Shown piece by piece: positions 4,009 through 63,366 of a stretch of 64,000 nucleotides of DNA. The stretch's first letter is position 1; every line of letters begins with the position of its first letter. The DNA is taken from the IMG/VR virus record IMGVR_UViG_3300035670_000025. One strand, written 5' to 3'. The notes beneath the pieces are model-generated. The model made no database searches, was not told the DNA's origin, and saw only the letters and a list, made by a program, of their open reading frames with translations. Source of the stretch: a virus. The position numbers and the translations under genes were made by a program.

Positions 4009-5064
4009 ATGTTAATTGCTATTGTTTGTGACACACACTATGGTGCTAGATCAGATTCTACTATTCTTCTAGATAACCAAAAACAGTTTTTTGATAACAC
4101 CTTTTTCCCAACATTAAAGGAAAAGGGTGTGAATACTGTTATTCATTTGGGAGATTTAGTAGATAGAAGAAAATATATTAATTTTAATACATCAAAAAGA
4201 ATGAGAACAGATTTTCTCAATCCGTTGCAAGAATATACTGTTCATATGATTGTTGGAAATCATGATGTATTTCATAAAAATACGAACGAAGTAAACGCAT
4301 TGCAAGAATTGCTGAATAGTTATTCTTTTGATGTTTATACAAACACAACTAAAATTGTGATTGATGGTTCTCCTATTCTTTTAGTTCCTTGGATAACAAC
4401 ACAAAATGAATCGCATACAATGCAAATGATTGATGATACAAAAGCACAAATTTGTATGGGTCATTTTGAACTTTCAGGATTTGAATTTTATAAAGGTGTT
4501 GTATCAGAACATGGTATGTCTCCTGATACTTTAAGTAAATTTGATTTGGTATTTTCGGGACATTATCATCAGAAATCATCAAAAGGAAATATTCATTATC
4601 TTGGTGCTCCTTATCCAATGACTTGGGCAGATTATGATTGTCCTAGAGGATTTCATTTATTTGATACAAATATAAGAGAACTTACTTTCATTGCAAATCC
4701 TTATTCTATCTTTACACAAATTAATTATGATGATACAAACTGTAAGACATTAGAGGATATTATCCAACAGTTTGTATCATGTAATAATATTACTAACAAT
4801 TATTGTAAAGTTATTGTTAAGAAAAAGTCAAACCCATATTTGTTTGATCTTTTTATTAATGAGTTAGAGAAACAATCTCCAAACGAAATAAAAATCATTG
4901 AACATAGTATATTAGTTACTGAAGAAACGACTTTTGACCAAGCAGAAGATACAATTTCAATCTTAAGAAAAACGATTGATGGTCTTGATGTAGAAGTAAA
5001 TAAACCACAATTACAAGATTTATTTTCTGACTTATATCAGCAAGCAAGCAATATGGAAATTTGA
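4009..5064 (+). CDS. gp47: Recombination endonuclease subunit gp47 (Mre11/SbcD-like)
   Basis: DTHYG, GDLVDRRK, GNHD, GHFE, SGHYH phosphoesterase motifs. Confidence 0.95.
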   Translation: MLIAIVCDTHYGARSDSTILLDNQKQFFDNTFFPTLKEKGVNTVIHLGDLVDRRKYINFNTSKRMRTDFLNPLQEYTVHMIVGNHDVFHKNTNEVNALQELLNSYSFDVYTNTTKIVIDGSPILLVPWITTQNESHTMQMIDDTKAQICMGHFELSGFEFYKGVVSEHGMSPDTLSKFDLVFSGHYHQKSSKGNIHYLGAPYPMTWADYDCPRGFHLFDTNIRELTFIANPYSIFTQINYDDTNCKTLEDIIQQFVSCNNITNNYCKVIVKKKSNPYLFDLFINELEKQSPNEIKIIEHSILVTEETTFDQAEDTISILRKTIDGLDVEVNKPQLQDLFSDLYQQASNMEI

Positions 5065-5065
5065 T

Positions 5066-5287
5066 ATGTTGACTTTTGAAAAAATCCGATGGCAGAAAAG
5101 TATCATAAATACTCATAAAAGAACATTATCTGGGATTGATGGTGGTTATCAATTAGACCACATCATATCGATAAAATTTGGATTTGACAATAACATATCT
5201 CCTGAGGCATTATCAGAAAAAAGTAATTTGAGAATGTTGCCTTGGAAAAAGAACCTAGAAAGAAATTGGGTTAAAAATACCTTTTAA
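5066..5287 (+). pseudogene. Original gp46 N-terminus (MLTFEKIRWQ) fused to an HNH endonuclease remnant
   Basis: First 10 aa align with gp46 start; YQLDHIIS..NLRMLPWKKN is an HNH C-terminal fragment; AAAATCCGATGGCA repeated at 5081 and 5332. Confidence 0.7.
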
Positions 5288-5316
5288 GTTAAAATTATTA
5301 TGTGGAGGATGTGACC

Positions 5317-7023
5317 ATTCTTATATTTTCTAAAATCCGATGGCAAAATTTTCTGTCTACGGGAAACATGTTTACGGAAATCCAACTTAATTCTCATAAT
5401 AATACTTTAATTTGTGGGGTCAATGGTTCTGGAAAAAGTACTTTGATTGATGCGATAACATTTGTTCTTTTTGGAAAATCGTTTCGTAATATAAACAAAC
5501 CACAATTAATCAACAGTACAAATTCTAAAAATATGTTGGTAGAAATAGAATTTTCTATCAATGGAAACAAATACATAGTTCGTCGTGGAATGAAACCAAA
5601 TATATTTGAAATCTATCAAAACGGAACTTTGATAAATCAATCAGCAGACAGTAAAGATTATCAATCAATTTTAGAAAAAACAATTCTTAAAATGAATTAT
5701 AAATCATTTTGTCAGGTTGTTGTTCTTGGTTCTGCAAACTTTACTCCGTTTATGCTATTACCAGCAGCACAAAGAAGAGCATTTGTTGAAGATTTGTTGG
5801 ATATACAAATATTCACAACCATGAATGCTTTGCTTAAAGATAAAACAGCAGAAAACAAGTTTGAGATCACAGATTGTGATACCAAAATCAAGATTGCAGA
5901 AAATACTTTAGAAGTGAATAAAAAGCATAGAGAACGTGCTTCTCGTGATATCATGGAATTAATTTCTCAAAAAGAAACATTGATTAAAGAAACTCAATTA
6001 GAATTAGATACTCACAATTCTGAGTTCTCTTCCTTGGAAATTAAAAGCAATCAATTACAGTCAAAAATAAGCAAGAACAGGCAGAAAAATAAGAATGCAC
6101 TGGATAAGGCATACAATATGAGAACTGCCCTAGAATCTAAATTAAAGGGCAATGAGAAGGGTATTGCATTCTATCAGGGAAATGATTCTTGTCCCACCTG
6201 TGAACAACATATTACTTCTGATTTTAAAGATAAGAAATTGCTTGATATTTCTACAAAGAAAGAAGAAAACGAATCTATTCTCAAAGAATTATCAGAAAAG
6301 ATTTCAAAACTGGAAAAGAATCAAGAGCAAATTATTTCATGGGCAGATGAATTACAACAACTAAACAAAGAACTTATTGAACTTTCTTCTAAAATTAATT
6401 TCTGCATGAAAGTAATTTCTTCATATGAGAAAGATATCAAAGATTTGAACAATAATTCGTTGGTCGAAATTGATGATACAGAAACTATTAATAAATTGAA
6501 TTATTTGAAAAAAACAAAAGAACATCTTTTTGCTCAAAGAGAACTATATAATGTTGGTCTCGTTTTGTTGAAAGATGGTGGAATTAAGGCAAAAATTATC
6601 AAACAATATATTCCAGTTATCAATCAGATGATTAACAAGTATTTGGACGATATGGAATTTTTCTGTCAATTTACTATTGATGAAACCTTTGAAGAAAAGA
6701 TAAAGTCCAGATATAGGGATGCTTTTACCTTTGAATCTTTTTCTGAAGGAGAAAAAATGAGATTGAATCTTGCTATTCTTTTTACATGGAGAGAATTGGC
6801 AAGAATGAGAAATTCAGCAGCAACGAATCTTCTAATACTTGATGAAATCATGGATTCTTCTTTAGATTCATCTGGTACTGAAGAATTCATTAAAATTGTT
6901 CAATCGTTAACAAAACGAAATAATGTATTTGTTATTAGTCATAAGACGGATCAAATACAAGAACGATTTGAAAATATTATTAGATTTGAAAAGAAAAAGA
7001 ACTTTTCAAAGATTGTAGAATAG
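5317..7023 (+). CDS. gp46: Recombination ATPase gp46 (Rad50/SbcC-like); start uncertain (ATT 5317, GTG 5302/5311)
   Basis: GVNGSGKST, CPTC zinc hook, FSEGEK, LLILDEIMD. Confidence 0.95.
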   Translation: MLIFSKIRWQNFLSTGNMFTEIQLNSHNNTLICGVNGSGKSTLIDAITFVLFGKSFRNINKPQLINSTNSKNMLVEIEFSINGNKYIVRRGMKPNIFEIYQNGTLINQSADSKDYQSILEKTILKMNYKSFCQVVVLGSANFTPFMLLPAAQRRAFVEDLLDIQIFTTMNALLKDKTAENKFEITDCDTKIKIAENTLEVNKKHRERASRDIMELISQKETLIKETQLELDTHNSEFSSLEIKSNQLQSKISKNRQKNKNALDKAYNMRTALESKLKGNEKGIAFYQGNDSCPTCEQHITSDFKDKKLLDISTKKEENESILKELSEKISKLEKNQEQIISWADELQQLNKELIELSSKINFCMKVISSYEKDIKDLNNNSLVEIDDTETINKLNYLKKTKEHLFAQRELYNVGLVLLKDGGIKAKIIKQYIPVINQMINKYLDDMEFFCQFTIDETFEEKIKSRYRDAFTFESFSEGEKMRLNLAILFTWRELARMRNSAATNLLILDEIMDSSLDSSGTEEFIKIVQSLTKRNNVFVISHKTDQIQERFENIIRFEKKKNFSKIVE

Positions 7024-19970: not shown

Positions 19971-20978
19971 ATGTCATTAATGAAAAAACTAATGAGCAAT
20001 TCAAAGATAAAGAAAACATCAATCCTCACCGAAAGTGAAGTTTTCACAGATAAGGATGTAATTCAAACAGATGTTCCAATGATCAATGTTGCATTGTCGG
20101 GTAAACTTGACGGTGGATTATCTCCAGGTCTACTAGTAATTGCAGCAGAAAGCAAACATTTCAAAAGTTCATTTGCTCTAGTATTAGGCAGTGCATTTCA
20201 AAAGAAATATGCTGATGGTATTATTCTGTTTTATGATACAGAATTTGGAATGCCACAACAATATTTCAAACAGTTTGGAATTGATACGGATAGAGTAGTT
20301 CATGTTCCAATTACAGATGTTGAAGAACTAAAACACGATATTGTTAATCAATTAGATAATATTAATCGAGGAGAAAAGGTTTTCATTATCCTTGATTCTC
20401 TCGGCAATCTTGCTTCAAAGAAAGAAGTTGAAGATGCTATGGAAGGAAAAAGTGTTGCTGATATGTCTCGTGCCAAGCAATTCAAATCCTTGTTTAGAAT
20501 GGTTACTCCGCATCTTACACTAAAGGATATTCCTATGGTTGTTATCAATCATGTGTATAAGGAAATCGGAACTATGTTTCCAAAAACTATTCCAGGTGGT
20601 GGAACAGGTGCTTATTATTCAGCAAGTGATATTTGGATCATTGGTAGGCAACAAGAGAAAGAAAAGGGGTCTTCTGAAGTTGCCGGGTTTAACTTTATTA
20701 TCAACATTGAGAAGTCTAGAACAGTGAAAGAGAAATCAAAGATACCAATTACTGTAATGCTAGAATCTGGTATAGAAAAATGGTCAGGATTGTTTGAAGT
20801 TGCTTTGGCAGGAGAATATATTAAAGAAATGTCTTCTGGATGGTTTTCTACAGATGGTGAAAAGAAACGAAGAAGGGCAGACATTGAAAATGACAATGAG
20901 TTCTGGCATAATCTATTACAAGACGATAAGTTCAAAACATTCGTTCAACAAAAGTATTCTTTGGTAAAAGGAGAATAA
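19971..20978 (+). CDS. uvsX: RecA-like recombinase UvsX
   Basis: NVALSG, SKHFKS, FYDTEFG, DSLGNLASKKE, ADMSRAK. Confidence 0.95.
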   Translation: MSLMKKLMSNSKIKKTSILTESEVFTDKDVIQTDVPMINVALSGKLDGGLSPGLLVIAAESKHFKSSFALVLGSAFQKKYADGIILFYDTEFGMPQQYFKQFGIDTDRVVHVPITDVEELKHDIVNQLDNINRGEKVFIILDSLGNLASKKEVEDAMEGKSVADMSRAKQFKSLFRMVTPHLTLKDIPMVVINHVYKEIGTMFPKTIPGGGTGAYYSASDIWIIGRQQEKEKGSSEVAGFNFIINIEKSRTVKEKSKIPITVMLESGIEKWSGLFEVALAGEYIKEMSSGWFSTDGEKKRRRADIENDNEFWHNLLQDDKFKTFVQQKYSLVKGE

Positions 20979-49896: not shown

Positions 49897-49899
49897 TGC

Positions 49900-51005: not shown

Positions 51006-51019
51006 TCCCTGATGACTTT

Positions 51020-51043
51020 TCTAGTGTAGCTCAATGGTAGAGC
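51020..51043 (+). pseudogene. Truncated tRNA 5' half
   Basis: TCTAGTG-TA-GCTC-AATGGTA-GAGC: acceptor strand plus complete D-arm, then breaks off. Confidence 0.7.
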
Positions 51044-51062
51044 TTTTACTTGATTGTAATGC

Positions 51063-51136
51063 TCTGGAGAGCCGAACAAGGTGGACGGGACTGTCTGTTA
51101 AACAGTATACGGTAGGTTCGATCCCTACCTCCAGAG
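51063..51136 (+). tRNA. Divergent tRNA-Asn(GTT), no encoded CCA
   Basis: TCTGGAG/CTCCAGA, ACTGT-CTGTTAA-ACAGT, GTAGG-TTCGATC-CCTAC. Confidence 0.8.
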
Positions 51137-51194
51137 CATTACAATCAAAGTTATATAAATACTTTCAGTTCGAGATAAATTGGGAGTATTTACT

Positions 51195-51713
51195 TTGAAT
51201 AAAGGTTCAGAACGAGTCATAAAATGGAGAAGACGCACCAAACATAAAATGGTTGAAGCTATGGGAGGTTGTTGTAAATTATGTGGATATGATAGATGTC
51301 AAGATGCAATGGATTTTCATCACATTGATCCAAATGAAAAAGAGTTTAGTTTTTCATCTGTCAGAGCATCACCCAAATCGTTATTATCATTAATTAATGA
51401 ACTAAAAAAGTGTGTTTTATTATGTTCACGATGTCATAGGGAAGTTCATGCCGGGATGGTTAAAGTTGAAATGCCATCTGTTTTGGATGAAAGCAAATTA
51501 ATAAGTGAAGTTGAATTAAAAAGAAAATTAAAACAACAATACACAGTTGTTACTCAAAAACAAGATAGACGAAAGATATTTTTGACTGATGAACAATTGT
51601 TAGAGTTGTTGAAAGAATATGATGGTAATAAATCTGCTCTTGCCAGATACCTAAATGTTAGTGAAACTGCTATTAGAAAAAAGTTGAGTTCAATCCCTAG
51701 ATCTATTTTTTAA
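51195..51713 (+). mobile_element. HNH endonuclease with C-terminal HTH (start approximate, TTG)
   Basis: GGCCKLCGY..DFHHIDP..K..ELKKCVLLCSRCHREVH; NKSALARYLNVSETAIRK. Confidence 0.85.
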
Positions 51714-51735
51714 TTTGTTTTATTCGGAGATTTAT

Positions 51736-52041
51736 ATGTTCAAACTTTTCACACCAATCATTGCTTGTGCAGCATTGTTTCTATCAATTGCTCCCGCCGA
51801 AGCACAACATAGAAGGCATGGTTATGGTGGGCATTATTGGAACCATCATTCGCATTATTATAGATCACATAGACCCTACAGGCATTATCGGAGAAATAAC
51901 ATTGCTCCGTATGTTGCTGGTGCTATTGGTGCTGCAATCATTGGTGGGATCATCTATGATCAATATGGTCGTAGGTGTTTTCGTGAAGTTGTGGGATATG
52001 ACCGATTTGGTGATCCTATAACAAGAAGAGTTTGTGAATAA
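51736..52041 (+). CDS. Secreted His/Arg/Tyr-rich protein
   Basis: Signal peptide, GAIGAAIIGG glycine zipper, two Cys. Confidence 0.65.
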   Translation: MFKLFTPIIACAALFLSIAPAEAQHRRHGYGGHYWNHHSHYYRSHRPYRHYRRNNIAPYVAGAIGAAIIGGIIYDQYGRRCFREVVGYDRFGDPITRRVCE

Positions 52042-52048
52042 ACAAATA

Positions 52049-52124
52049 GCACATGTAGCTCAATGGATAGAGCCACCGGTTTCTACCCGGTAGGTTGTGG
52101 GTTCGAGTCCTTCCATGTGCGCCA
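52049..52124 (+). tRNA. tRNA-Arg(TCT)
   Basis: GCACATG/CATGTGC, loop TTTCTAC, CCA. Confidence 0.9.
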
Positions 52125-52154
52125 ATTCAATTCTCTAAAATAGGATTATTTAAT

Positions 52155-52244
52155 ATGCCAAAAGAAACAGCATTTGGTCGATTTGTTGCTCTCGTTTTAT
52201 TGTTCGTAATTGTCATGAGCATGTCAGGACTTTTCTATTGGTAA
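52155..52244 (+). CDS. 29-aa TM micropeptide
   Basis: AGGA RBS; single hydrophobic helix. Confidence 0.4.
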   Translation: MPKETAFGRFVALVLLFVIVMSMSGLFYW

Positions 52245-52248
52245 ATTA

Positions 52249-52323
52249 AGGGAAATGGTGTAATGGTTAGCACAGAAGGCTTTGAACCTTCTGGTCTGGG
52301 TTCAAGTCCTGGTTTCCCTACCA
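52249..52323 (+). tRNA. tRNA-Gln(TTG)
   Basis: AGGGAAA/TTTCCCT, loop CTTTGAA, CCA. Confidence 0.88.
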
Positions 52324-52421
52324 CAAATAAATGTAAAAACAGAATTGCTAATTACAAATTATCCTATTGACAGAATATCTATTTTGTAGTATGATACCAA
52401 ATATAAACAAGGATATATAAT

Positions 52422-52676
52422 ATGCTTGAAAAGATTCTTGATGCTTTTTTTCTTACTATGTTTTTTTTAGTTACGGGTATCTTAATACTTATGTTGTTAG
52501 CAGGTTTTATTCAGGCTTATCATAGCATTGTTTACAAAGTTTATAAAGAAGCAAATGATAAATGTTATGTGATGCATGGTAGACTTTTGACAACTGATAG
52601 TAAGTATATCTGTTATGGTGCGCCTGTGAATGGTCAACCCGTAGTTTATTTTGAAATGAATAAGCCATACAAGTAG
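52422..52676 (+). CDS. Hypothetical membrane protein
   Basis: N-terminal TM; upstream promoter and RBS. Confidence 0.55.
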   Translation: MLEKILDAFFLTMFFLVTGILILMLLAGFIQAYHSIVYKVYKEANDKCYVMHGRLLTTDSKYICYGAPVNGQPVVYFEMNKPYK

Positions 52677-52709
52677 AATAAGTGGGTTCGATTCCCACAC
52701 GGGTTTCCA
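52636..52709 (+). ncRNA. tRNA-like element (acceptor stem + T-arm + CCA; no D or anticodon arm)
   Basis: AACCCGT/ACGGGTT, GTGGG-TTCGATT-CCCAC, T-CCA. Confidence 0.55.
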
Positions 52710-52869
52710 AAATATTACTTGACAAGGAATCAAAAATGTGGTATCTTGCTCATACTCGTGAATACAAGTTCATATCTTGTAACTCTTATGAACAAGCAGT
52801 GAATGAGTACTACAGACAATATCGTGATGATGATGGTTCACTCCCTTGGACCATTGAATATAAAGTTTA

Positions 52870-52946
52870 GGACCCTTAGCTCAATCGGTTAGAGCAACTG
52901 ACTTTTAATCAGTTGGTTCTCGGTTCAAGTCCGAGAGGGTTCTCCA
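52870..52946 (+). tRNA. tRNA-Lys(TTT)
   Basis: GGACCCT/AGGGTTC, loop CTTTTAA, CCA. Confidence 0.9.
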
Positions 52947-54407: not shown

Positions 54408-55253
54408 ATGAAAATATCATATGTGTCCGATCTCCATCTTGAGTTCTTAGACTGGCCTGATTTCTCTAATGAACCTGGTGGAGATGTTCTATTGCTGGCT
54501 GGTGATATTACTACGGCAGCAATGCTTAGACCACATAGAACAGATAAGGATGCTAGAAAGCATTCAAAGTATATGAAGAAGTTCAAGAAGGACTTGATTG
54601 ATAAGTATGATGCTGTTTATATGGTCATGGGAAATCATGAACATTATAACTCTATCTTTGGCAATACTAAGCAAGAACTGATTGATGGTTTTGCTAATCT
54701 TGAACTAACAAAGATTCGGATTCTTGATAATGATACAGTCAAGATTCACGATTGGACATTGGTTGGTGCTACTCTATGGACAGACTTCTTCAAAGGCAAT
54801 TCGTTTGCTATGTGGGATGTTGAAAGAAAGATGAACGATTATAAGTTGATTGGCAAAGAAGATGTCAAGGACATGAACTATTTCAATCGTACATCTAACA
54901 GGAAGATTGATGCTGAGTTTATTTTGAATCAGCATAATATCTCAAGGGCATACATTGAGGAAGTTATCAAAAATAATGATAAAGTGATTGTTATGACACA
55001 TCATGCACCAACACATCTATCATTGAACCAAGAACATTCTGGTAACAGTTTAGACTTTGCTTATTTCTCAAACTTATCGGATTTGATTTTGGACAATCCA
55101 TCTATCAAGTACTGGATTCATGGACACACTCATATGAATGTTGATTATGTTGTTGGTGATTCGGAGTGCCGAGTTTTATCAAATCAACGTGGTTATCATT
55201 TTGAGAAGTGTGCTTATAACTTCACTGGTTTGAGGGACATTGAATTGCCATGA
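54408..55253 (+). CDS. Calcineurin-like metallophosphoesterase
   Basis: SDLHLE, AGDI, GNHEHY, THHAP, HGHTH. Confidence 0.9.
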   Translation: MKISYVSDLHLEFLDWPDFSNEPGGDVLLLAGDITTAAMLRPHRTDKDARKHSKYMKKFKKDLIDKYDAVYMVMGNHEHYNSIFGNTKQELIDGFANLELTKIRILDNDTVKIHDWTLVGATLWTDFFKGNSFAMWDVERKMNDYKLIGKEDVKDMNYFNRTSNRKIDAEFILNQHNISRAYIEEVIKNNDKVIVMTHHAPTHLSLNQEHSGNSLDFAYFSNLSDLILDNPSIKYWIHGHTHMNVDYVVGDSECRVLSNQRGYHFEKCAYNFTGLRDIELP

Positions 55254-55438
55254 AAAGAGATTGGATACATAGAAGAACACAAGATAAGACAACATTTATG
55301 TTGAATGATTATGTTATATGTTCTGCTATTGAATTTAGTATTGACCAGTATATCTTTGGTTATGTCTACAAAGATAGAATTATTGAAAGAGGAACTCTTG
55401 TTCTTGCTATTGATAGGATAATGATAGATGTCAAATAA
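55250..55438 (+). CDS. Hypothetical protein ending in a degenerate array junction
   Basis: Coupled; 3' end ATTGATAGG...ATGTCAAATAA. Confidence 0.5.
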   Translation: MKRDWIHRRTQDKTTFMLNDYVICSAIEFSIDQYIFGYVYKDRIIERGTLVLAIDRIMIDVK

Positions 55439-55622
55439 AACAAAAGATACAATTGATAATGCCACTTATAATGCCACTTGGGATGCCACTTGGGATGTCA
55501 CTGATAATGACACTTTGAATGCCACTAGAACTGCCACAATTGCATCTTGGACTGCCACTGGAAATGTCACTTTTAATGATACTAAAGATGCTATCAGGCG
55601 AGAACTAGAACATGTCAAATAA
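55428..55622 (+). CDS. Tetrapeptide-repeat mini-protein, unit 1
   Basis: MSNKTKD...NATY NATW DATW...RELEHVK. Confidence 0.75.
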   Translation: MSNKTKDTIDNATYNATWDATWDVTDNDTLNATRTATIASWTATGNVTFNDTKDAIRRELEHVK

Positions 55623-55797
55623 AACAAAAGATGTCACTTATAATGTCACTTATAATGCCACTATAAATGCCATTGATAATGTCACTTATGATGCCACTTG
55701 GGATGCCACTTGGGATGTCACTGATAATGACACTTTGAATGCCACTTATAATGCTACTTGGGATGCTATTGAAATGGAATTGAAAAATATCTCTTGA
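55612..55797 (+). CDS. Tetrapeptide-repeat mini-protein, unit 2
   Basis: Same architecture. Confidence 0.75.
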   Translation: MSNKTKDVTYNVTYNATINAIDNVTYDATWDATWDVTDNDTLNATYNATWDAIEMELKNIS

Positions 55798-55822
55798 CTT
55801 CCATCCTTCCATATGCTATAGT
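55794..55822 (+). promoter_or_regulatory. sigma70-type promoter for DUF6745-like gene
   Basis: TTGACT-N17-TATAGT. Confidence 0.7.
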
Positions 55823-55851
55823 TACATCCTAATCAACAAAGGAACTGATCA

Positions 55852-56889
55852 ATGACTAACAATATCGTTCGTACTCCTACTAAGGCTTCTGGTGGTATCA
55901 CTGAAGAGGAGAAGATACTGCTCAAGGAGCATACCGATAAGTGGATCAAGATGATTCTACGCACAACTCCTACGGACTTTACTAAACTAAAGCCTGCTAT
56001 TGAAGGTCTATATGCTGCTGCTGATCTAGCAAAGCCTATTGTTGTTCTTGCTAAGTCACCAATCCAGATGGTATTCATGTATGGTGCTGCTTCTGCCCTT
56101 CTTTCAAAGAAGAACGCACAGGATGCACAAACTGTAATGGATACTGTTACAGAAGCATTCAATGCCGTTGATACTTCTTCAGGTGGTGTTGTTTCAAAGT
56201 ATGTTGAAGTATGTAAGAAACTCGCAGGCAAGAAGGGTATTTCAGAAGCAAAGCAGTGGTCAAATGTGTATCAGGGTGGTGCATATTGGGCACAGTATGA
56301 TGTTTATCTTACTGCTATGCGGGATGTGATTGGTCTTCAACTTCCTGAGTATGAGAAGTATAAGTATTGGGAAGAAGCAGCCATTCATGGTACATTCCGT
56401 GTTATGCATGAGAAGTTCTGTATTGTTTCGGACTTTCCACAAGTGCTGAAGATTGATGACCAGAATCGTGCTCATTTACAGAATGGTCCTTCACATCGTT
56501 GGTCTGATGGTTGGTCACTATATCATTGGCATGGTGTATCTGTTCCTGAGCATTGGATTATGGATACCAAGTCATTGAGTGCCAAGGAAGCAATTACATG
56601 GCAGAATATTGAGCAACGCCGTGCGGCATGTGAGATTCTTGGTTGGGCAAAGATCCTGGCAGAACTTGATGCTAAGGTAATTGATACTGATGGTGATCCA
56701 GAGATTGGTGAACTATTGGAGGTTACATTGCCTGACATTGGAACTGAGAAGTTTCTTCGTGTAAAGTGTGGAACAGGTCGAGAGTTTGCTTTGCCAGTTC
56801 CACCTGATATGAAGACTGCTTTACAGGCCAATGCTTGGACTTTTGGAATGGATACGAATGAGTTTGTGGTTCCGGAAGTTCGTACATAA
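55852..56889 (+). CDS. DUF6745-like protein
   Basis: CIVSDFP..L.ID..NRAH...GP..RW.DG..LY.WHGV.VP, N.EQRRA..EI.GW, C.TGR.FAL.VPP...TA..A.AWTFG. Confidence 0.7.
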   Translation: MTNNIVRTPTKASGGITEEEKILLKEHTDKWIKMILRTTPTDFTKLKPAIEGLYAAADLAKPIVVLAKSPIQMVFMYGAASALLSKKNAQDAQTVMDTVTEAFNAVDTSSGGVVSKYVEVCKKLAGKKGISEAKQWSNVYQGGAYWAQYDVYLTAMRDVIGLQLPEYEKYKYWEEAAIHGTFRVMHEKFCIVSDFPQVLKIDDQNRAHLQNGPSHRWSDGWSLYHWHGVSVPEHWIMDTKSLSAKEAITWQNIEQRRAACEILGWAKILAELDAKVIDTDGDPEIGELLEVTLPDIGTEKFLRVKCGTGREFALPVPPDMKTALQANAWTFGMDTNEFVVPEVRT

Positions 56890-56896
56890 CTGAAAA

Positions 56897-56927
56897 GAGA
56901 ACGGGAGCAAAAATGTTCCCGTTTCTC
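56897..56927 (+). terminator. Hairpin after DUF6745-like gene
   Basis: GAGAACGGGAGCA-aaaa-TGTTCCCGTTTCTC. Confidence 0.55.
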
Positions 56928-56938
56928 ATATGGAGTGA

Positions 56939-57163
56939 ATGATGATTGATAAAACAAAAGATGCCACTAAGAATGCCACTAGGGTTGCCACTTATAATGC
57001 CACTAGGGTTGCCACTGAAAATGCCACTTGGGATGCCACTTGGAATGCCACTTGGAATGCCACTAGTAATGTCACTTATAATGCCACTTGTAATGCCACT
57101 TGGGATGCCACTAGGAATGCCACTTATAATGCTATTGATAGGGAACTAGAACATGTTGAATAA
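56939..57163 (+). CDS. Tetrapeptide-repeat mini-protein, unit 3
   Basis: GGAG RBS; about 14 tetrads. Confidence 0.75.
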   Translation: MMIDKTKDATKNATRVATYNATRVATENATWDATWNATWNATSNVTYNATCNATWDATRNATYNAIDRELEHVE

Positions 57164-57350
57164 AACAAAAGATGCCACTTATAATGCCACTTGGAATGCC
57201 ACTTGGAATGCCACTTATAATGCCACTGAAAATGCCACTAGTAATGTCACTTATAATGCCACTTGTAATGCCACTTGGGATGCCACTAGGAATGCCACTT
57301 ATAATGCCACTAAGAATGCTATTGTCAGAGAACTAGAACATGTTGAATAA
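57153..57350 (+). CDS. Tetrapeptide-repeat mini-protein, unit 4
   Basis: Coupled; 187-bp unit. Confidence 0.75.
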   Translation: MLNKTKDATYNATWNATWNATYNATENATSNVTYNATCNATWDATRNATYNATKNAIVRELEHVE

Positions 57351-57537
57351 AACAAAAGATGCCACTTATAATGCCACTTATAATGCCACTAGGGTTGCCA
57401 CTGAAAATGCCACTGAAAATGCCACTAGTAATGTCACTTATAATGCCACTTGTAATGCCACTTGGGATGCCACTTGGGATGTCGCTGATAATGACACTTT
57501 GAATGCTATTGTCAGAGAACTAGAACATGTTGAATAA
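57340..57537 (+). CDS. Tetrapeptide-repeat mini-protein, unit 5
   Basis: Coupled; 187-bp unit. Confidence 0.75.
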   Translation: MLNKTKDATYNATYNATRVATENATENATSNVTYNATCNATWDATWDVADNDTLNAIVRELEHVE

Positions 57538-57727
57538 AACAAACAAAATGACAAATCATATATCACATTTAGTAGATGAAAGAATTTATCACATATTGGA
57601 TTTTCGTTCATATATGGAAATTGATTCTCATACATGTGGAAAGATAAATAGAATATCTTTTCCAACAGATTTTATCATAAAACAAGAACTTCACAGAGTA
57701 TTATTTTCACTTGACAACATCACATAA
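57527..57727 (+). CDS. Divergent array member, unit 6
   Basis: Shares MLNKT start and IKQEL end, no repeats. Confidence 0.6.
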   Translation: MLNKTNKMTNHISHLVDERIYHILDFRSYMEIDSHTCGKINRISFPTDFIIKQELHRVLFSLDNIT

Positions 57728-57739
57728 GTAGTGTATAGT
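57711..57739 (+). promoter_or_regulatory. sigma70-type promoter
   Basis: TTGACA-N17-TATAGT. Confidence 0.75.
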
Positions 57740-57772
57740 TATACCATCATCAATAAAAGATAAATGTAATAA

Positions 57773-58384
57773 ATGATAAAATGTTCTGTAAACACATGTA
57801 AAAATAATGTTAAATCCAGAGGATTGTGTAAAAAACATTATCTATATTATAGTCGTCATAATATGTTACCTGAAAAACAACCATATAAAAGACCTAAAAG
57901 ACAAAAAGAAGAATCGGTTAGGTTCTGGGAAAAAGTTGATAAAAGTAATGAAAATGGATGTTGGGTTTGGTTAGGTAATAAAAATAAACAGGGTTATGGC
58001 GAATTTATATTGGACAACAAAAAGTCTGTTAGGGCACATAGATATTCTTTTTTGCTAAGTAATGGATATATTGACAACGATAAATTTGTGTGTCATACAT
58101 GTGATAATTCTAGTTGTGTAAATCCTAATCATCTTTGGCTAGGAACAGCAGCAGAAAATAATGCTGATTGTAGAAATAAAAACAGAGCAGTTTTACCTCC
58201 AGAACAAAAAGGAGAAAATCACAGTCAGCATATATTGAAAGAAAAAGATGTCTTAGACATAAGAAAGAGGTTTAACAATGGTGTAAAACAAGCAGACTTG
58301 ATGAGAGAATATAAAGTAAGCAGAAATACTATATATAAAATATGTCGTAACTTAACATGGAAAAACTTAGGAGAAATAAAATGA
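57773..58384 (+). mobile_element. HNH homing endonuclease
   Basis: RFWEKV..CWVW.G..GYG, AHRYS, VCHTCDN..CVNP.HL..GT...NN.D. Confidence 0.9.
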
Positions 58385-58728
58385 ATATTCGTCGATTTGT
58401 TAATTGTGCGGCTCAAGGTGATATTTACATCCGTCGCATTGATACACCAATTCCTGCAAATGCTGTTGAAGTGCCGCCAGTTGGTAAGTATGTAGTTGTT
58501 ACCCACTCCGAGACTGGTCATAATCATGTGATGGAGAAGGAGAAGGTAAAGATGTATCAACTTCCTGACTCTATCATGGATTGTCTACTTGTTGTAAATG
58601 ATCCTGTTGCTCTAGAGCATCTCCGTGATTATGATACACATGAACCCATTCTATTTGAGAAGGGAACATATCATGTTCGCCGTCAGAGGGAGTATGTACC
58701 AGAAGGATATAGAAGAGTTGAAGATTGA
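58381..58728 (+). CDS. Small His-rich beta protein of the type found next to DUF6745 genes
   Basis: QGDI, HSETGHNH, H..H.PI....G.Y.VRRQREY.P...RRVED. Confidence 0.7.
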   Translation: MNIRRFVNCAAQGDIYIRRIDTPIPANAVEVPPVGKYVVVTHSETGHNHVMEKEKVKMYQLPDSIMDCLLVVNDPVALEHLRDYDTHEPILFEKGTYHVRRQREYVPEGYRRVED

Positions 58729-58775
58729 TACTGAGAGAGTCCCGTAACTGGGACTCTTTTCATATGGAGAATTTG

Positions 58776-58961
58776 ATGATAGGTAAAATCAATGATGTAA
58801 CGGTCAATGCTATTTATGTTGCTACTAAGAATGTCACATGTGATGTTACTTTGGATGTCACTAGAAATATCACAATTAATGTCATTTTGAATGCCACAAG
58901 TGATTCTACTTTTAACGCAATTAGGAATGCTATTGATAGGGAACTAGAACATGTCAAATAA
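58776..58961 (+). CDS. Tetrapeptide-repeat mini-protein, unit 7
   Basis: GGAG RBS after hairpin; ends AIDRELEHVK. Confidence 0.7.
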   Translation: MIGKINDVTVNAIYVATKNVTCDVTLDVTRNITINVILNATSDSTFNAIRNAIDRELEHVK

Positions 58962-59181
58962 AACAAAGAATGCCATTTGGTATGTCACTAGAAATGCAAC
59001 TTGGATTGCCACTGATAATGCCACTAGAACTGTCACTGATAATGCCACTAGAACTGTCACTTATAATGCTACTTATAATGTCACTTATAATGTTACTTGG
59101 AATGCCACTGATAATGCCATTTGGAATGTCACTTTTAATGCTACTGGGAATGCTATCAAAAGAGAACTAGAACATGTCTAA
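58951..59181 (+). CDS. Tetrapeptide-repeat mini-protein, unit 8
   Basis: Coupled; repeats. Confidence 0.75.
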   Translation: MSNKTKNAIWYVTRNATWIATDNATRTVTDNATRTVTYNATYNVTYNVTWNATDNAIWNVTFNATGNAIKRELEHV

Positions 59182-59380
59182 ACCAGTGAACTTTGTGAAA
59201 ATCAAAACACATAAAGTAGGCACACATTATTTCGGAACTTCAACAATGACCTTTTTGGATGATTTGACACGTGATTATTTACAAGATATAGTACTTGATA
59301 ATGTAAGAGAACGAATGACAGAAGCAACATTTGATTCTCTTCGTCTTCAAATAAAAGAGACTCTGTATAATGTCAGATAA
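59174..59380 (+). CDS. Divergent array member, unit 9
   Basis: Starts in junction motif. Confidence 0.6.
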   Translation: MSKPVNFVKIKTHKVGTHYFGTSTMTFLDDLTRDYLQDIVLDNVRERMTEATFDSLRLQIKETLYNVR

Positions 59381-59561
59381 AACATGGAATGAAATTAGGA
59401 ATATAACAAATAACATCGGCAGAACTGTTACTGCTGCCACTTCAAATGATACATGGAAACCTGTTTATTATTCTACTTCATATGTTATTTTACATAAAAC
59501 AGATACATCAATATCTTGTATTTTGACTGCTATCAAAAGAGAACTAGAACATGTCAAATAA
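59370..59561 (+). CDS. Divergent array member, unit 10
   Basis: MSDKT...AIKRELEHVK. Confidence 0.7.
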   Translation: MSDKTWNEIRNITNNIGRTVTAATSNDTWKPVYYSTSYVILHKTDTSISCILTAIKRELEHVK

Positions 59562-59739
59562 AATCGTAGATGATATTAATACATATAATAGATTAATTCT
59601 TGATGTATCAATTTACCGTGCTACAAAAGAAGCAACATGGTCAGTTTTATATTTTACTGATTATTTTCATTTCACACGCAGTATTCTTGATAATGTTATA
59701 TTCAATGAAATTGAAAAGGAACTAGAACATGTTGAATAA
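59551..59739 (+). CDS. Divergent array member, unit 11
   Basis: MSNK...KELEHVE. Confidence 0.7.
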   Translation: MSNKIVDDINTYNRLILDVSIYRATKEATWSVLYFTDYFHFTRSILDNVIFNEIEKELEHVE

Positions 59740-59923
59740 AATCAAAGATGCCATTAGAATTTCGACTTGGAATTCGACTGATATTGCCACCCATCATGCT
59801 GCTTATCATATCATTGATAATTCCACTAAAAATGTTACTTTGTTTCCAGCTTATGAGGTCACTTATAATATCACTTGGAATATCACTAATAATGCCATTT
59901 ATAAGGAACTAGAAAATGTCTGA
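59729..59923 (+). CDS. Degenerate-repeat array member, unit 12
   Basis: MLNKIKD..NSTD..NITW NITN NAIYKELENV. Confidence 0.7.
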   Translation: MLNKIKDAIRISTWNSTDIATHHAAYHIIDNSTKNVTLFPAYEVTYNITWNITNNAIYKELENV

Positions 59924-60182: not shown

Positions 60183-60387
60183 CACAAAATCTCCATCCGA
60201 TAAACCATTTAAAATTCAAGAGCATAAGAGAGAACGGAGAGTTGTCAAACACAGATTGACAAGTGCTGTGGACTATGATAATATGGTTCTACCTGATAAA
60301 GAGAATTTTGGAAACGCATGGAATTCACCTAAAGATGGAAAGCATTGGTTACGTAGATCAATCAAAGATAAGTGGATGAGGAAATAA
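60145..60387 (+). CDS. Basic hypothetical protein
   Basis: MSRSRKKTPI..S.K..K....R..R..W...KDGK. Confidence 0.65.
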   Translation: MSRSRKKTPISGNTKSPSDKPFKIQEHKRERRVVKHRLTSAVDYDNMVLPDKENFGNAWNSPKDGKHWLRRSIKDKWMRK

Positions 60388-63366
60388 TGAAAAAATATAA
60401 TTGGGTCAATTATCCTGAAAATATCCCATCTGTTTCTGGTTATTACATGTGTGTATATTTTAATTTAGAACAAAAATGTGATTTGTTTAAAGCAATTTAT
60501 TGGAACAAAAAATGGATTCAATGGAATCCTAAAATTCAAATTGAAAATCAAGTAAAATCTTTTTTGCCTGATAGTATGGCAAAGTATTATACGACGTGTC
60601 TTTTTTGGTGGAAAGATAATTATGACAACGGATTGGTAGAGAAATATAAGGATGACTGATATTATTGAACTACTGAATAATATGAATATCAAGGATGATT
60701 TTGGATTTCCAAGAGATGATGTCAGGCAACAAGTAATTGGTGAAATCGTTAGATTGAGACTTTCTTTAGAGAGAATTTTGCTTGATGTGAAGTTCATGGT
60801 TGAAAATGATACGATACCTTATGTGCTAGATGATTTTATTTATCAACAAGCATTAGAACTAATGACACCAGAATTCATGAAAGAGTTTAATAATGACTGA
60901 CATTGTAGAGAAACTAGAAAAGTATGGTACTAAAGGTGATAAATGAAACCGGATAGGAAAATAAGAAATGTTTATAATTGTGTAGTTTTTAGTACATCAG
61001 ACTCAATTCAAGATGAAAAATTGTATAGTAGTGTATATTATTTAACAGATGTAATTTCTTCACAAAAAGTTTTATCTATAGCAACTATAAATTTGCAAAA
61101 CATTGTTAAAGATATGTTTAAGAGCATTTCAAATGACTGATATAGATTCTCTTATCAAGAAATTGATTAATATAGCAACACACAATTCAGTAGTAAATTC
61201 AACCGATTCAGTCACATATAATATGATTATGACTATTACACATCAAGCAAGTTATCTTGGTACACATAATCCTATAAGAGATGCTATTTATAGTGAGATT
61301 TGGAATGATCTTGAAAGGAATGCGAAATGAAAGACATAACAATGTCAGGTTGGATTTTCTTTATTATGTTGTTTGTGTTGTTTGTCTTATTGATCAAGGA
61401 TGTATTATGAATAGAGAAATGTGTAATAACTGTAAATTCTGGGAACAAGACTTGGATAGGGGTAAGTGTAGACGGTTTCCACCCCTACACTGGTTTGTGG
61501 GTGGAAAATGGGAACAACCAACAACAAACTTTAATCAATGGTGTGGAGAATATAAGCAAAATGAATCTTCAAGAAAAAGTTGATCTTGCGTATGAAGAAG
61601 GCAAGAACGCATATTATGATGGTAAGAAACCAGAAGATAATCCATATACTGGCATAGACCAAGATTATGAATTTGATGCCTGGAAAGAAGGATATTACAA
61701 TGCCGCATGGGACGATTGAAGGTTGAACAAAATGAAAATTCATAAGTTTGAAGTTTATGTTCTGGACTTTGAAGATTATGGTCCAAATGAATATAAGAAC
61801 ATCATTGAAAATAAAATTGATTTTGTCAAAGTGTTCGTTCAAGGTTCATCAAAAAAAATTAAATGGACAGATGAACATGAATTAAATAAGAATACTGCTA
61901 CAATTGAAACTTGGAGGAAGTATGTGATATGAATGATTATCAAAAAGAATATTGCTCTATGATTACATATAAAGTAATTCCCAGAGATTCATATGTTCAA
62001 TTGACAGGTAAAGTGATAGATGTCGAAATTATCATTTATCATATTGACGAAGAAGAAAGTCCTATTCTAACAGGTAGACTTGATTGGCAAGATGGTCTAC
62101 ATATCTGGCAGTCAGAATGTATTGATCCTTTCACATGGTCAACAGTTGCCAATCAAATGCTTTTAGCAATGAAAGCAGCAAAAGAACTGATAGATCCTGT
62201 GACATATTGTGCTGGTGAACCAGAATGAGTTATCATATCTTTGATGAAACAACATCTAAAATAAACAAAATATTTCATGATGTTTTAGATAAAACAGAAA
62301 TAAATTATGAATTAGAAAGATTGATGGGTTTAAGAGCATCACAATTTGTTGGTAATCTTATTGACAACAATGTTTATAATGCTATTAATAAGGAATTAAA
62401 CAATGTATCTTAGTTTCAATATTTCTTTTCCATATAAGAAACATACGAAACATATTGATTATGTAGTTAAAACATGGTCAATTAGTAAAAACAAATCACT
62501 AGAACTACAAATATCTAAATGGGGCAATTCATGGACTTTGTTTGGTATTATAATCAGTCCTTCTTGGTATAGATCACATTCTGGATTTCTATTTGATATT
62601 ACATTATTCAACTATTGTATGATTATTAACTTCTATGATAACAGACACTGGAATTATGAAGAAGGTAGATGGTGCAGAGATGACGAATACGACTAATAAT
62701 CAAATAGAACTATTCAAAGTTGTTTGTGATGAAACAAATAATACTAAAGAATCTCTTGAACAAGGATATCTAAAAGTTGATATTTTTGTTCCTCAATATT
62801 ATTATGAATTAAAATTTATAGTGAACAAAGATGGAAAAATAGAATATGAAGAATAGAACATGGATTTATGAATATCCTGGTGGTGAACGAGGTGAAATAT
62901 ACTGTTCTGAAACTATAACAGATAAAGAAATTCTAGAAGAACGTTGGGATTGGTGGAAAGAACTAATGATCAAAAAGCATGGTGCTAATTCAAAACTAAT
63001 TACAAAAGAAAACTGTATTCGTGATTGGGTTGTTGATAATTATGCTTGGGAATTGAAAGATGAGTAACTGATTGATTTTATAACAAAATTAGGTGCTTGA
63101 CATTCATGTTCCAGTATGATAGTATTGGAACATAATCGTTGCTATGGAGACTGGAAATGAACTATCAGCAATATTGGGAACAGTTTCTTCCACTTTTTCC
63201 AAAAGGATGGACACTGATTGATTATGATATTGATGCTGAAGCACTATACGGTGATGATAAATTAGTAGGAAAGACATTGACACTGACACATTTACATGCT
63301 AATCTTATCAAGAATGCTGTTGTGGCAGGTCGTATGGACTCTAAATTTATGGAAAATTTACTATGA
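60387..63366 (+). CDS. Run of short coupled hypothetical ORFs (about 12 genes)
   Basis: Overlapping start/stop ORFs of 60-105 aa; some resemble degenerate array members. Confidence 0.5.
63097..63125 (+). promoter_or_regulatory. sigma70-type early promoter
   Basis: TTGACA-N17-TAGTAT. Confidence 0.6.

What the first reader, a model, noticed from the sequence alone, without database searches (positions are those of the whole stretch)
55602..59920. Conserved cassette junction GAACTAGAACATGT(C/T)(A/G)AATAAAA links divergent ORFs
The 14-mer GAACTAGAACATGT occurs exactly at 55602, 57143, 57330, 57517, 58941, 59164, 59541 and 59719, with degenerate versions near 55418, 59360 and 59906. Spacing is about 178-223 bp and exactly 187 bp three times. 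Each junction holds the upstream C-terminus (ELEHV), the next ATG and the upstream stop, so any cassette swapped at the junction stays translationally coupled. The junction is conserved even where cassette bodies are unrecognisable (units 6, 9, 10, 11). It contains the palindrome ACATGT. Inference: a recombination or coupling site for integron-like cassette gain, loss and shuffling.
Basis: partly seen in the sequence, partly recalled or inferred. Interest (0 to 1): 0.78.

Follow-up and report, generated by a model that had tools for sequence, protein, structure and literature searches.

The report
Overlapping joint chaining phage mini-gene cassettes
The repeated 14-mer is the 11-base stop/start overlap that chains about 13 tiny helical-protein genes in a T4-like phage. 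Related phages differ in which of these genes they carry exactly at this joint, so it acts as a swap point for ordinary homologous recombination, not as an integron site.

Summary
GAACTAGAACATGT occurs 8 times exactly and once with 1 mismatch, against 0.9 expected by chance. Every copy sits where one 62-76 aa gene ends (..RELEHV[K/E]*) and the next starts (M[S/L]NK..) 11 nt earlier.

The window is an uncultured T4-like phage. The genes are single-helix mini-proteins built on a four-residue x-N-A-T repeat. Homologous DUF6745 proteins carry that repeat inside one chain. This phage's DUF6745 protein lacks it and is predicted, not shown, to bind a mini-protein.

Four things together explain the junction's conservation:
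- a conserved protein end;
- dual coding across the overlap;
- start-site features: an SD-like RE codon pair, an unstructured spacer and an in-frame stop two codons before each ATG;
- homogenisation by recombination.

The synonymous sites of GAA-CTA-GAA never vary, while the neighbouring codons do.

Cassette polymorphism is real. Close relatives at 92-99% identity carry 1, 2, 4 or 6 units where the window has 4 or 6, and identity starts or stops within about 20 nt of the joint. A second lineage has a different, internally identical joint and a 1.65-kb unit-to-unit deletion variant.

No integrase or attC-like hairpin exists. UvsX and gp46/47-like genes are present. The closest known mechanism is PeSL-mediated modular shuffling. 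This scan has reported the same mini-gene class on other phage DNA.

The parts
55250..55438 (+). Degenerate first unit of array 1 (62 aa, ends ..AIDRIMIDVK*); its start overlaps the stop of the metallophosphatase gene 54408-55253
   Evidence: degenerate joint at 55418 with 11-nt overlap
55428..55622 (+). Unit (64 aa, x-N-A-T repeats, ends RELEHVK*); 14-mer at 55602
55612..55797 (+). Terminal unit of array 1 (61 aa, ends ELKNIS*); its TGA stop lies inside the -35 box of the next promoter
55794..55822 (+). Sigma-70-like early promoter TTGACT-17-TATAGT in front of the DUF6745 gene
   Evidence: 10 of 12 matches, TG extension; consensus match only
55852..56889 (+). DUF6745 protein (345 aa) that lacks the internal tetrapeptide tract found in homologues
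   Evidence: Pfam PF20530 E 1.2e-21; phrog_31813; homologues with 0-250 aa x-N-A-T tracts; model pLDDT 91
56900..56923 (+). GC-rich hairpin, then CATATGGAG (SD), in front of array 2
   Evidence: I12; sequence; the same layout recurs at 58737-58775
56939..57163 (+). Unit (74 aa), first of array 2; 14-mer at 57143
57153..57350 (+). Unit (65 aa); 14-mer at 57330; predicted as one helix, residues 2-64
   Evidence: AF2 pLDDT 88.6; docking prediction
57340..57537 (+). Unit (65 aa); 14-mer at 57517
   Evidence: 187-nt tandem period at 87% identity
57527..57727 (+). Last unit of array 2 (66 aa); keeps the MLNKTN start, body unrelated
57711..57739 (+). Sigma-70-like promoter TTGACA-17-TATAGT
   Evidence: 11 of 12 matches; consensus match only
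57773..58384 (+). HNH_3 homing-type endonuclease with C-terminal HTH, inserted at an array border
   Evidence: Pfam PF13392 E 6.7e-9; relatives carry other HNH genes at other array borders
58381..58728 (+). Conserved 115-aa partner gene (phrog_27831, function unknown); the longest ORF starts at 58357
   Evidence: homologues sit inside or beside arrays in L002 and L020 (sequence); genes of similar size at the same place in the P0027 and P0039 contigs, no DNA read
58737..58760 (+). GC-rich hairpin, then CATATGGAG (SD), in front of array 3
   Evidence: sequence; conserved in L002
58764..58961 (+). Unit (65 aa), first of array 3; 14-mer at 58941
58951..59181 (+). Unit (76 aa); 14-mer at 59164; variant joint with 8-nt overlap (..HV*)
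59174..59380 (+). Non-repeat cassette (68 aa); degenerate joint at 59360; a homologue is the first unit after DUF6745 in L018
59370..59561 (+). Unit (63 aa, degenerate repeats); 14-mer at 59541, which is the right breakpoint of the window/L002 cassette replacement
59551..59739 (+). Unit (62 aa); 14-mer at 59719; orthologue in L002 and L003
   Evidence: pN/pS 0.46
59729..59923 (+). Last unit of array 3 (64 aa, ends KELENV*); 1-mismatch 14-mer at 59906, which is the breakpoint against L014
59916..60182 (+). First non-family gene (88 aa), started from the last joint
   Evidence: 95-96% identical in L002 and L014
62225..62413 (+). Distant family member (62 aa, ends ..AINKELNNVS*) with an 11-nt overlap onto the next gene
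19971..20978 (+). UvsX/RecA-like recombinase, part of the phage's general recombination machinery
   Evidence: Pfam RecA E 1.9e-16
4009..7023 (+). gp47/gp46-like (SbcD/SbcC-like) recombination nuclease pair
   Evidence: Metallophos; phrog_77 E 1.3e-163

Best explanation
The 14-mer is the core of a roughly 50-nt joint that chains tandem early mini-genes of an uncultured T4-like phage. Each gene encodes one long helix built on an x-N-A-T four-residue repeat. This is a free-standing copy of the variable tract that homologous DUF6745 proteins carry internally. Each gene ends ..NAI-x-RELEHV[K/E] and overlaps the next start (M[S/L]NKTK) by 11 nt.

The joint stays constant for stacked reasons:
(i) The C-terminal motif is a protein feature. 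In the model, the NAI residues touch the DUF6745 core.
(ii) Two reading frames fix CATGT and the following 9 nt.
(iii) The R/K-E codons supply a weak SD (GAG, AGG or AGGA) 8-10 nt upstream of the ATG. The spacer is unstructured. Leu-CTA plus the next G makes an in-frame stop two codons before the ATG, which closes the next gene's frame.
(iv) Copies are homogenised by recombination.

Because the joint is the only sequence shared by otherwise unrelated units, the phage's general homologous recombination (UvsX, gp46/47-like) crosses over there. It also crosses over, in register, within the 12-nt repeats. These events delete, duplicate, replace and move whole units while keeping every survivor in a coupled chain.

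Shown here: the anatomy, the polymorphism with breakpoints at the joint, the lineage-specific joints and the absence of a dedicated recombinase. Inferred: translational coupling, the role of the in-frame stop, which enzymes act, and binding to DUF6745.
For: Anatomy. Nine of the window's twelve 11-nt overlaps lie in these arrays.

Phage type: DNA polymerase 49% identical to cyanophage gp43, nine tRNAs, clamp, clamp loader and UvsX.

Family: metagenomic mini-proteins with the same ends. DUF6745 homologues carry internal x-N-A-T tracts followed by NAI-x-x-Q/E-h. Unit model: one helix, pLDDT 88.6. Docking: ipSAE 0.87 against a best control of 0.00, runs agreeing in at least 95% of contacts, partner pLDDT 90. 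The mark was reached by 58 of 80 solved complexes and 2 of 110 mismatched pairs. My own alignments were used, and this is a split-protein case that may pass by likeness.

Polymorphism:
- Array 3 has 6 units in the window, 4 in L002 and at least 2 in L014 (cut at its 5' end). Flanks are 95-98% identical, and identity begins about 20 nt before the 14-mer at 59541 and at the joint 59906.
- Array 2 has 4 units in the window, 1 in L019 and 2 in L018, next to a DUF6745 gene 93% identical in DNA.
- The 59174-type cassette is in another array in L018. The 77-aa cassette is internal in L014 but first in L002.
- The P0027 contig has 8 units after DUF6745.

Second lineage: L020 has five identical copies of a different joint (..AGGATTCTAAGTAATGTCAACTTATAA, 14-nt overlap). 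L021 and L022, 99.4% identical in the flanks, lack 1.65 kb through exchange between the first and last unit.

Synonymous sites: in the 14 distinct ELEH-type joints listed, E-L-E is always GAA CTA GAA. CTA is 16% of Leu codons here. The adjacent codons vary: Ala (GCT/GCC), Ile (ATT 7, ATC 7) and Arg (AGA, AGG, CGA).

In-frame stop at codon -2: present in five sequence-different joint types (TAG, TAA, TGA), against 6% of all ATGs and 8 of 63 large ORFs.

Joint RNA is less structured than shuffles, z +0.3 to +1.8. Units are coding: pN/pS is 0.36-0.46 for non-repeat units against 0-0.19 for the flanks.
Against: Ongoing exchange, circles and expression are therefore untested. The joints are homologous, so invariance of CTA and of the -2 stop may partly reflect shared descent or conversion rather than selection. 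The degenerate joints at 59360 and at L018 1555 lack the -2 stop. The SD-like element is only 3-4 nt. Breakpoints can only be placed to about 20 nt, because the joint is the only shared sequence. The docking score may reflect memory of the fused DUF6745 forms. The function of DUF6745 is unknown; no PDB fold match was found.
Confidence: 0.75

Rival explanations
1. Integron-like site-specific system: the joint is an attC/attI-type site cut and rejoined by a dedicated recombinase that excises about 187-bp circles and inserts them.
For: Cassette-like polymorphism with breakpoints at a short conserved site. Arrays lie downstream of promoters.
Against: No tyrosine or serine recombinase was found among 49 ORFs scanned: 45 of the window's 46 ORFs of 150 aa or more, plus four smaller ones. 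None was found on the related contigs either. The joint has no inverted repeat or hairpin and folds worse than shuffles. The joint sequence differs between lineages while staying uniform within each. Exchanges also occur inside the 12-nt repeats, which fits homology-driven events.
Confidence: 0.03
2. Purely passive conservation: the joint is conserved only by protein-end and overlap/coupling constraints. Recombination there is an incidental by-product with no bearing on how the arrays evolve.
For: About 10 of the 14 bases are fixed by dual coding and GAA is the preferred Glu codon at 85%. The C-terminal motif is predicted to contact the DUF6745 core. The same motif follows the tract in fused DUF6745 proteins.
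Against: Every unit-content difference found between near-identical relatives maps to the joints or to the in-register repeats. Joints are uniform within a lineage but different between lineages. An orthologous joint differs by the paired K/MSN versus E/MLN switch inside a patch of clustered mismatches, which suggests conversion.
Confidence: 0.12
3. Homing-endonuclease-driven mosaicism: the HNH genes at array borders cut nearby, and double-strand-break repair, not the joint itself, drives unit replacement.
For: HNH genes sit at array borders in the window (57773-58384), in L002 (a different HNH at a different border) and on the P0010 contig. Such endonucleases are known to cause co-conversion of flanking markers in T4-type phages (general knowledge).
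Against: L020, L021 and L022 show a unit-to-unit deletion with no HNH gene nearby. Breakpoints lie at joints up to 1.5 kb from the HNH gene. No cleavage site is known. At most this supplies breaks that the joint homology then resolves.
Confidence: 0.07
4. RNA-level element: the joint is an RNA processing or ribosome-recoding signal (endonuclease site, frameshift or read-through site) that yields fused or cleaved products.
For: Nucleotide-level invariance of GAA-CTA-GAA. Successive units rotate through the three frames, and an open MPLG-type frame runs in phase with the next gene.
Against: No structure, with z above 0. No Rfam family. No suppressor tRNA among the nine phage tRNAs. The conserved in-frame stop blocks fusion rather than promoting it. 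There is no slippery heptamer in the overlap (sequence).
Confidence: 0.03

Closest known systems
PeSL (promoter-early stem-loop) cassettes of T4-type phages (Arbiol et al. 2010, PMC2839356; Comeau et al. 2014, PMC4122927)
   Same: A short repeated motif of about 50-100 bp flanks small non-essential early genes in the hyperplastic regions of T4-like phages. Homologous recombination between copies explains insertions, deletions and replacements between close relatives and keeps the moved gene expressible.
   Different: A PeSL is intergenic and transcriptional: a sigma-70 promoter plus a terminator hairpin. This joint is coding and translational. It holds the C-terminus, a weak SD, the start and the stop in an 11-nt overlap, with no promoter or hairpin. 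It links members of one protein family rather than unrelated ORFans. Mini-circles were shown for PeSLs and were not tested here.
Integron attC/IntI gene cassettes
   Same: Arrays of small, mostly promoterless units that vary in number and order, bounded by a recurring site.
   Different: There is no integrase, no attC hairpin and no attI. The site lies inside overlapping coding sequence and is lineage-specific.
Internal tetrapeptide tract of DUF6745 (PF20530 / phrog_31813) proteins, and the (AAxx)n tract of mycobacteriophage Tweety gp54, Che8 gp57 and PMC gp51 (Pham et al. 2007, PMC2884959)
   Same: A four-residue, 12-nt repeat with two constant and two variable positions, and a copy number that differs widely between relatives: 0 to about 60 repeats in DUF6745 homologues and 48, 26 and 15 in the Tweety group. 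Function is unknown.
   Different: Here the tract is detached into many separate chained genes beside a tract-less DUF6745 gene. Tweety gp54 was not recovered as a DUF6745 homologue by tblastn, so that link is by analogy only.
Translationally coupled overlapping genes (ATGA or TAATG type) in phage operons
   Same: The downstream start lies within or next to the upstream stop, and the SD sits inside the upstream coding sequence.
   Different: The overlap is a long 11 nt. It encodes conserved residues in both frames and is reused as a repeat about a dozen times. Elsewhere in the window most overlaps are 1, 4 or 8 nt.

Membership tests
Integron | Adjacent IntI-type tyrosine recombinase gene | tested here: not met
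   Pfam or PHROG scans of 49 ORFs (45 of the window's 46 ORFs of 150 aa or more, plus four smaller) found none. The rest of the 151-kb contig was not available.
Integron | attC site: imperfect inverted repeat that folds into a hairpin on one strand | tested here: not met
   Six joints fold less well than shuffles, z +0.34 to +1.79. No inverted repeat is centred on a joint.
Integron | Excised circular cassette intermediates | not testable with these tools
PeSL modular-shuffling elements | Sigma-70-like early promoter combined with a stem-loop in an intergenic motif | tested here: not met
   The joints are coding, unstructured and hold no strong promoter. Promoters and hairpins occur only at array borders (55794, 56900, 57711, 58737).
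PeSL modular-shuffling elements | Located in variable early regions of a T4-like phage, and recombination between copies accounts for indels between close relatives | tested here: met
   T4-like core genes. Unit gain, loss and replacement with breakpoints at joints.
Detached DUF6745 tetrapeptide-repeat mini-genes | 12-nt / four-residue periodic repeat predicted as one long helix | tested here: met
   TRF period 12. AF2 helix over residues 2-64, pLDDT 88.6.
Detached DUF6745 tetrapeptide-repeat mini-genes | The same tract occurs inside DUF6745 proteins of relatives, and the local DUF6745 lacks it | tested here: met
   P0070-P0072, P0075, P0097, P0105 and P0133 carry x-N-A-T or x-A-A-T tracts of about 40-250 aa between the N-domain and DUF6745. 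The window protein (345 aa) has none. Many of the longer profile hits are 400-650 aa with the match inside the chain; the one scanned (P0147) carries DUF6745.
Detached DUF6745 tetrapeptide-repeat mini-genes | Mini-protein binds the DUF6745 core | tested here: inconclusive
   Prediction only: ipSAE 0.87 against a best control of 0.00, reached by 58 of 80 solved complexes and 2 of 110 mismatched pairs, with my own alignments. A split-protein case may pass by likeness.
Translationally coupled overlapping genes | Start codon inside the upstream ORF, with an SD-like element upstream in an accessible region | tested here: met
   11-nt overlaps. GAG, AGG or AGGA lies 8-10 nt upstream. The RNA is unstructured. 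Actual coupling was not measured.

The most novel reading that the evidence does not exclude
The arrays are a recombination-fed library of interchangeable helical inserts for one core protein. A tract-less DUF6745 core docks any one of about 13 mini-helices, so it can present many alternative surfaces. The dual-coding joint has been shaped by selection (invariant synonymous sites, an in-frame insulating stop, a weak SD) so that any crossover between joints yields a correctly expressed new combination. This would be a coding-level, homology-driven counterpart of an integron, used in a phage-host arms race.
Probability: 0.3. Interest if true: 0.8.

Novelty: new variant of a known kind. Interest (0 to 1): 0.55.

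Why it matters
PeSL-type modular shuffling in T4-like phages, described so far for intergenic promoter/terminator motifs, appears to have a coding counterpart. A stop/start overlap is reused as the homology patch, so whole genes can be swapped without breaking translation. The finding also places a widespread but unstudied phage protein family (DUF6745, about 2000 metagenomic homologues) next to a fast-changing library of detachable helical modules. That gives a concrete, testable handle on its function: co-expression, pull-down and array-length polymorphism in natural populations.

Tried and rejected
1. Exact 23-mer and a degenerate protein-preserving 22-mer searched in IMG/VR: no hits.
2. 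The degenerate pattern in JGI metagenome contigs: 10 single hits, all chance, none encoding a family member.
3. megablast of 7 kb and tblastn of one unit against GenBank phages: nothing. The low-complexity filter may hide repeat units.
4. Pfam on units: only sub-threshold noise, Gp5_trimer_C at E 0.068 and DUF5672 at E 0.006.
5. The longest hits of the profile search (1100-2300 aa) are unrelated low-complexity proteins with PT repeats or glycine zippers.
6. Fold searches of the DUF6745 model: no PDB match by Foldseek (best E 0.11). VIA-align wide gave a best Z of 5.9 on a 70-residue helical sub-part, below the noise level for helical proteins. BFVD returned only other DUF6745 proteins.
7. Rfam on 53-63 kb: only a sub-threshold snoRNA match.
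9. pN/pS for repeat-type units exceeded 1 but is unreliable, because repeat register cannot be aligned with confidence.
10. Frameshift or read-through fusion of successive units: rejected. The next gene's frame is closed by a stop two codons before each ATG, and no suppressor tRNA is present.
11. No whole genome is held for this window.

Full report
OBSERVATION

The 14-mer GAACTAGAACATGT is present exactly at the eight stated positions and with one mismatch at 59906, all on the + strand. Dinucleotide-preserving shuffles give 0.9 matches on average at up to two mismatches, and none of 100 shuffles reaches nine. The degenerate joints at 55418 and 59360 are visible in the sequence and in the alignment of 13 joints. 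Spacings are 178-223 nt, and 187 nt three times. Tandem Repeats Finder reports the 187-nt period (3 copies, 87% identity) and a 12-nt period inside the units.

WHAT THE COPIES ARE

ORF listing shows a chain of small + strand genes of 61-76 aa. Each ends ..NAI-x-RELEHV[K/E]* and is overlapped by the next start M[S/L]NKTK... The overlap is 11 nt, either ATGTCAAATAA or ATGTTGAATAA.

The units form three arrays:
- Array 1: 55250, 55428 and 55612, followed by a promoter-like site and the DUF6745 gene (55852-56889), then a hairpin and an SD.
- Array 2: 56939, 57153, 57340 and 57527, followed by a promoter-like site, an HNH gene (57773-58384), a 115-aa gene (58381-58728), then a hairpin and an SD.
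- Array 3: 58764, 58951, 59174, 59370, 59551 and 59729, followed by the 88-aa gene at 59916.

More diverged members lie at 61133 and 62225. Nine of the twelve 11-nt overlaps in the whole window are in these arrays.

CONTEXT

The window is an uncultured T4-like myophage. Its DNA polymerase is 49% identical to cyanophage gp43. It also encodes a sliding clamp, a clamp loader, a UvsX/RecA-like protein, a gp46/47-like nuclease pair, ribonucleotide reductase and nine tRNAs, with nearly all genes on one strand. No GenBank phage is close in DNA.

THE PROTEINS

A profile of ten units finds stand-alone mini-proteins in metagenomes, many with the same MSNK.. start and ..RELEHVK end. Many of the longer hits are 400-650 aa proteins with the match inside the chain.

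Homologues of the window's DUF6745 protein (2023 at E<1e-5) include forms of 380-560 aa. In these, an x-N-A-T (or x-A-A-T) tract of about 40-250 aa is inserted between the N-terminal domain and the DUF6745 domain. The tract is followed by NAI-x-x-Q/E-h-x-x-h, the same motif that ends the mini-proteins. The window's 345-aa copy has no tract. The mini-genes are therefore free-standing copies of that module.

AlphaFold2 predicts a unit as one helix over residues 2-64, pLDDT 88.6, and the DUF6745 protein with pLDDT 91. The DUF6745 model has no convincing PDB fold match. Only other DUF6745 proteins, such as that of Microcystis phage LMM01, match in BFVD.

A complex prediction of DUF6745 plus unit 57153 supports binding but does not show it:
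- Score 0.87 against a best control of 0.00.
- The runs agree in at least 95% of contacts, and the partner's pLDDT is 90.
- The mark was reached by 58 of 80 solved complexes and 2 of 110 mismatched pairs.
- My own alignments were used, so these counts hold only roughly.
- As a split-protein case, the pass may come from likeness to the fused forms.

The Ala/Thr face of the repeats and A56/I57 of the NAI motif make the low-error contacts.

IS THE JOINT MORE CONSERVED THAN CODING EXPLAINS?

CATGT and the following nine bases are fixed by the two frames: His must be CAT, Asn must be AAT, and so on. The free sites are the third positions of Glu-Leu-Glu and the first position of Leu.

In the 14 distinct ELEH-type joints listed from six contigs, these codons are always GAA CTA GAA. 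CTA is only 16% of Leu codons in this phage. The three codons just upstream vary freely: Ala GCT/GCC, Ile ATT 7 and ATC 7, Arg AGA, AGG or CGA. So there is extra nucleotide-level constancy. Three features may account for it:
(a) The R/K-E codons give GAG, AGG or AGGA 8-10 nt before the ATG.
(b) The joint RNA is less structured than shuffles, z +0.3 to +1.8.
(c) CTA plus the next G forms TAG two codons before the ATG, in the frame of the next gene.

A stop at that position recurs in five sequence-different joint types: CTA-G, CTA-A, TTA-A, ATG-A, and TAG in the L018 joint. The background is 6% of all ATGs and 8 of 63 large ORFs. This stop ends the open MPLG-type frame that runs through repeat units in phase with the next gene. 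Two degenerate joints lack it. Shared descent and conversion could also produce much of this pattern.

CASSETTE POLYMORPHISM

L002 (JGI 3300005805) is 95-98% identical to the window in the flanking genes. It carries a different HNH gene at a different place and four units instead of six. A novel 78-aa unit and a 61-aa repeat unit replace four window units. Identity starts about 20 nt before the 14-mer at 59541 and is then nearly perfect.

L014 (Logan SRR30952023) has the same 77-aa cassette behind a joint, so it is internal there rather than first. It is followed by a 52-aa chimera made by an in-register exchange between two repeat units. Identity to the window starts at the joint at 59906.

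L018 and L019 have a DUF6745 protein 96% identical to the window's. They carry two units and one unit where the window has four. The first unit in L018 is a homologue of window unit 59174, which sits in another array in the window.

A contig whose DUF6745 protein is 81% identical has eight chained units after it and several before, mostly with 11-nt overlaps.

At the orthologous joint 59719, the window has the E/MLN form and L002 the K/MSN form. This lies inside a patch of clustered mismatches, 21 in 135 nt against about 1% further on, which suggests a conversion tract.

A SECOND LINEAGE

L020, L021 and L022 share an identical DUF6745 protein that is 64% identical to the window's. They carry x-N-A-T mini-genes that start MSTYN.. 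and end ..NAINRILSNVNL*, chained by a different joint with a 14-nt overlap. The joint is identical in five copies. L021 and L022, 99.4% identical in the flanks, lack 1.65 kb (five units plus the partner-gene homologue) through exchange between the first and last unit.

Joints that are uniform within a lineage but different between lineages fit concerted evolution by homology-driven exchange. They do not fit a fixed recombinase site.

INTEGRON TEST

No integrase or other site-specific recombinase was found among 49 ORFs scanned: 45 of the window's 46 ORFs of 150 aa or more, plus four smaller ones. None was found on the related contigs either. There is no hairpin or inverted repeat at the joint and no Rfam family. 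The integron reading fails on its defining features. The cassette-shuffling idea itself stands.

COMPARISON WITH KNOWN SYSTEMS

The closest known mechanism is PeSL-mediated modular shuffling in T4-type phages. There, intergenic promoter/stem-loop motifs of about 100 bp recombine to delete, insert or replace small early genes and can give mini-circles (PMC2839356; PMC4122927). Here the repeated patch is a coding stop/start overlap without promoter or hairpin, and it links members of one protein family.

The repeat itself resembles the variable tetrapeptide tracts described in mycobacteriophage Tweety gp54, Che8 gp57 and PMC gp51, which also have no known function (PMC2884959). A homology link to DUF6745 was not recovered. 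No paper in the held library mentions DUF6745.

EARLIER NOTES OF THIS SCAN

After I had reached the DUF6745 link and submitted the docking job, a look-up showed that follow-up reports on other phage genomes describe the same class ('detached DUF6745 repeat mini-gene arrays'), including one with an 11-base overlap. First-reader notes on this window mention the mosaic 12-bp blocks and the promoter-gene-hairpin-array module. These agree with my results and are not independent evidence.

VERDICT

The joint is a dual-coding, probably translationally coupling overlap of a tandem mini-gene family. It is also the place where ordinary homologous recombination reshuffles the family. It is not integron-like in mechanism.

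NOT DONE

Noticed in passing
window 58381-58728; L020 5566-5907; L002 3-203: A 113-123 aa protein (phrog_27831, no Pfam family) travels with the mini-gene arrays and DUF6745 in at least three lineages. It is part of the 1.65-kb block that is present or absent among L020, L021 and L022. It may be a third component of the system.
   Followed up: partly
window 57172-57336, 57359-57502, 58970-59170, 59748-59912: Repeat units carry a fully open second frame (MPLG/MPLI repeats, 47-66 aa) in phase with the next gene. It is closed only by the TAG inside the joint. It is probably a by-product of the AATGCCACT repeat, but it may explain the conserved stop.
   Followed up: partly
window 55787-55822; L018 and L019 3' ends: Terminal units end ..ELKNIS* or ..ELQNNS*, with the TGA stop embedded in the -35 hexamer (TTGACT) of the next sigma-70-like promoter. 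This is a second, PeSL-like kind of conserved unit end.
   Followed up: partly
window 36152-36721, 37397-37915, 57773-58384; L002 203-652: The window holds at least three HNH_3 homing-type endonuclease genes. Close relatives carry different HNH genes at different array borders, so the endonuclease insertions are themselves polymorphic.
   Followed up: no
window 60386-60651 vs L014 856-969: L014 lacks the 95-aa gene at 60372-60659. Its 80-aa gene runs straight into the homologue of 60652-60900. This is another small-gene indel in the same variable region, away from the family joints.
   Followed up: no
window 55852-56889: The confidently modelled DUF6745 protein (pLDDT 91, pTM 0.84) has no recognisable fold match in the PDB by Foldseek or VIA-align. 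About 2000 homologues exist in metagenomes but only 11 GenBank phage records, mostly Microcystis phages.
   Followed up: partly
window 43451-52946, 44228-45265, 47458-48216: Nine tRNA genes are interspersed with a PstS-like phosphate-binding protein gene and a Bax1-I family membrane protein gene. These are auxiliary genes typical of aquatic T4-like phages.
   Followed up: no
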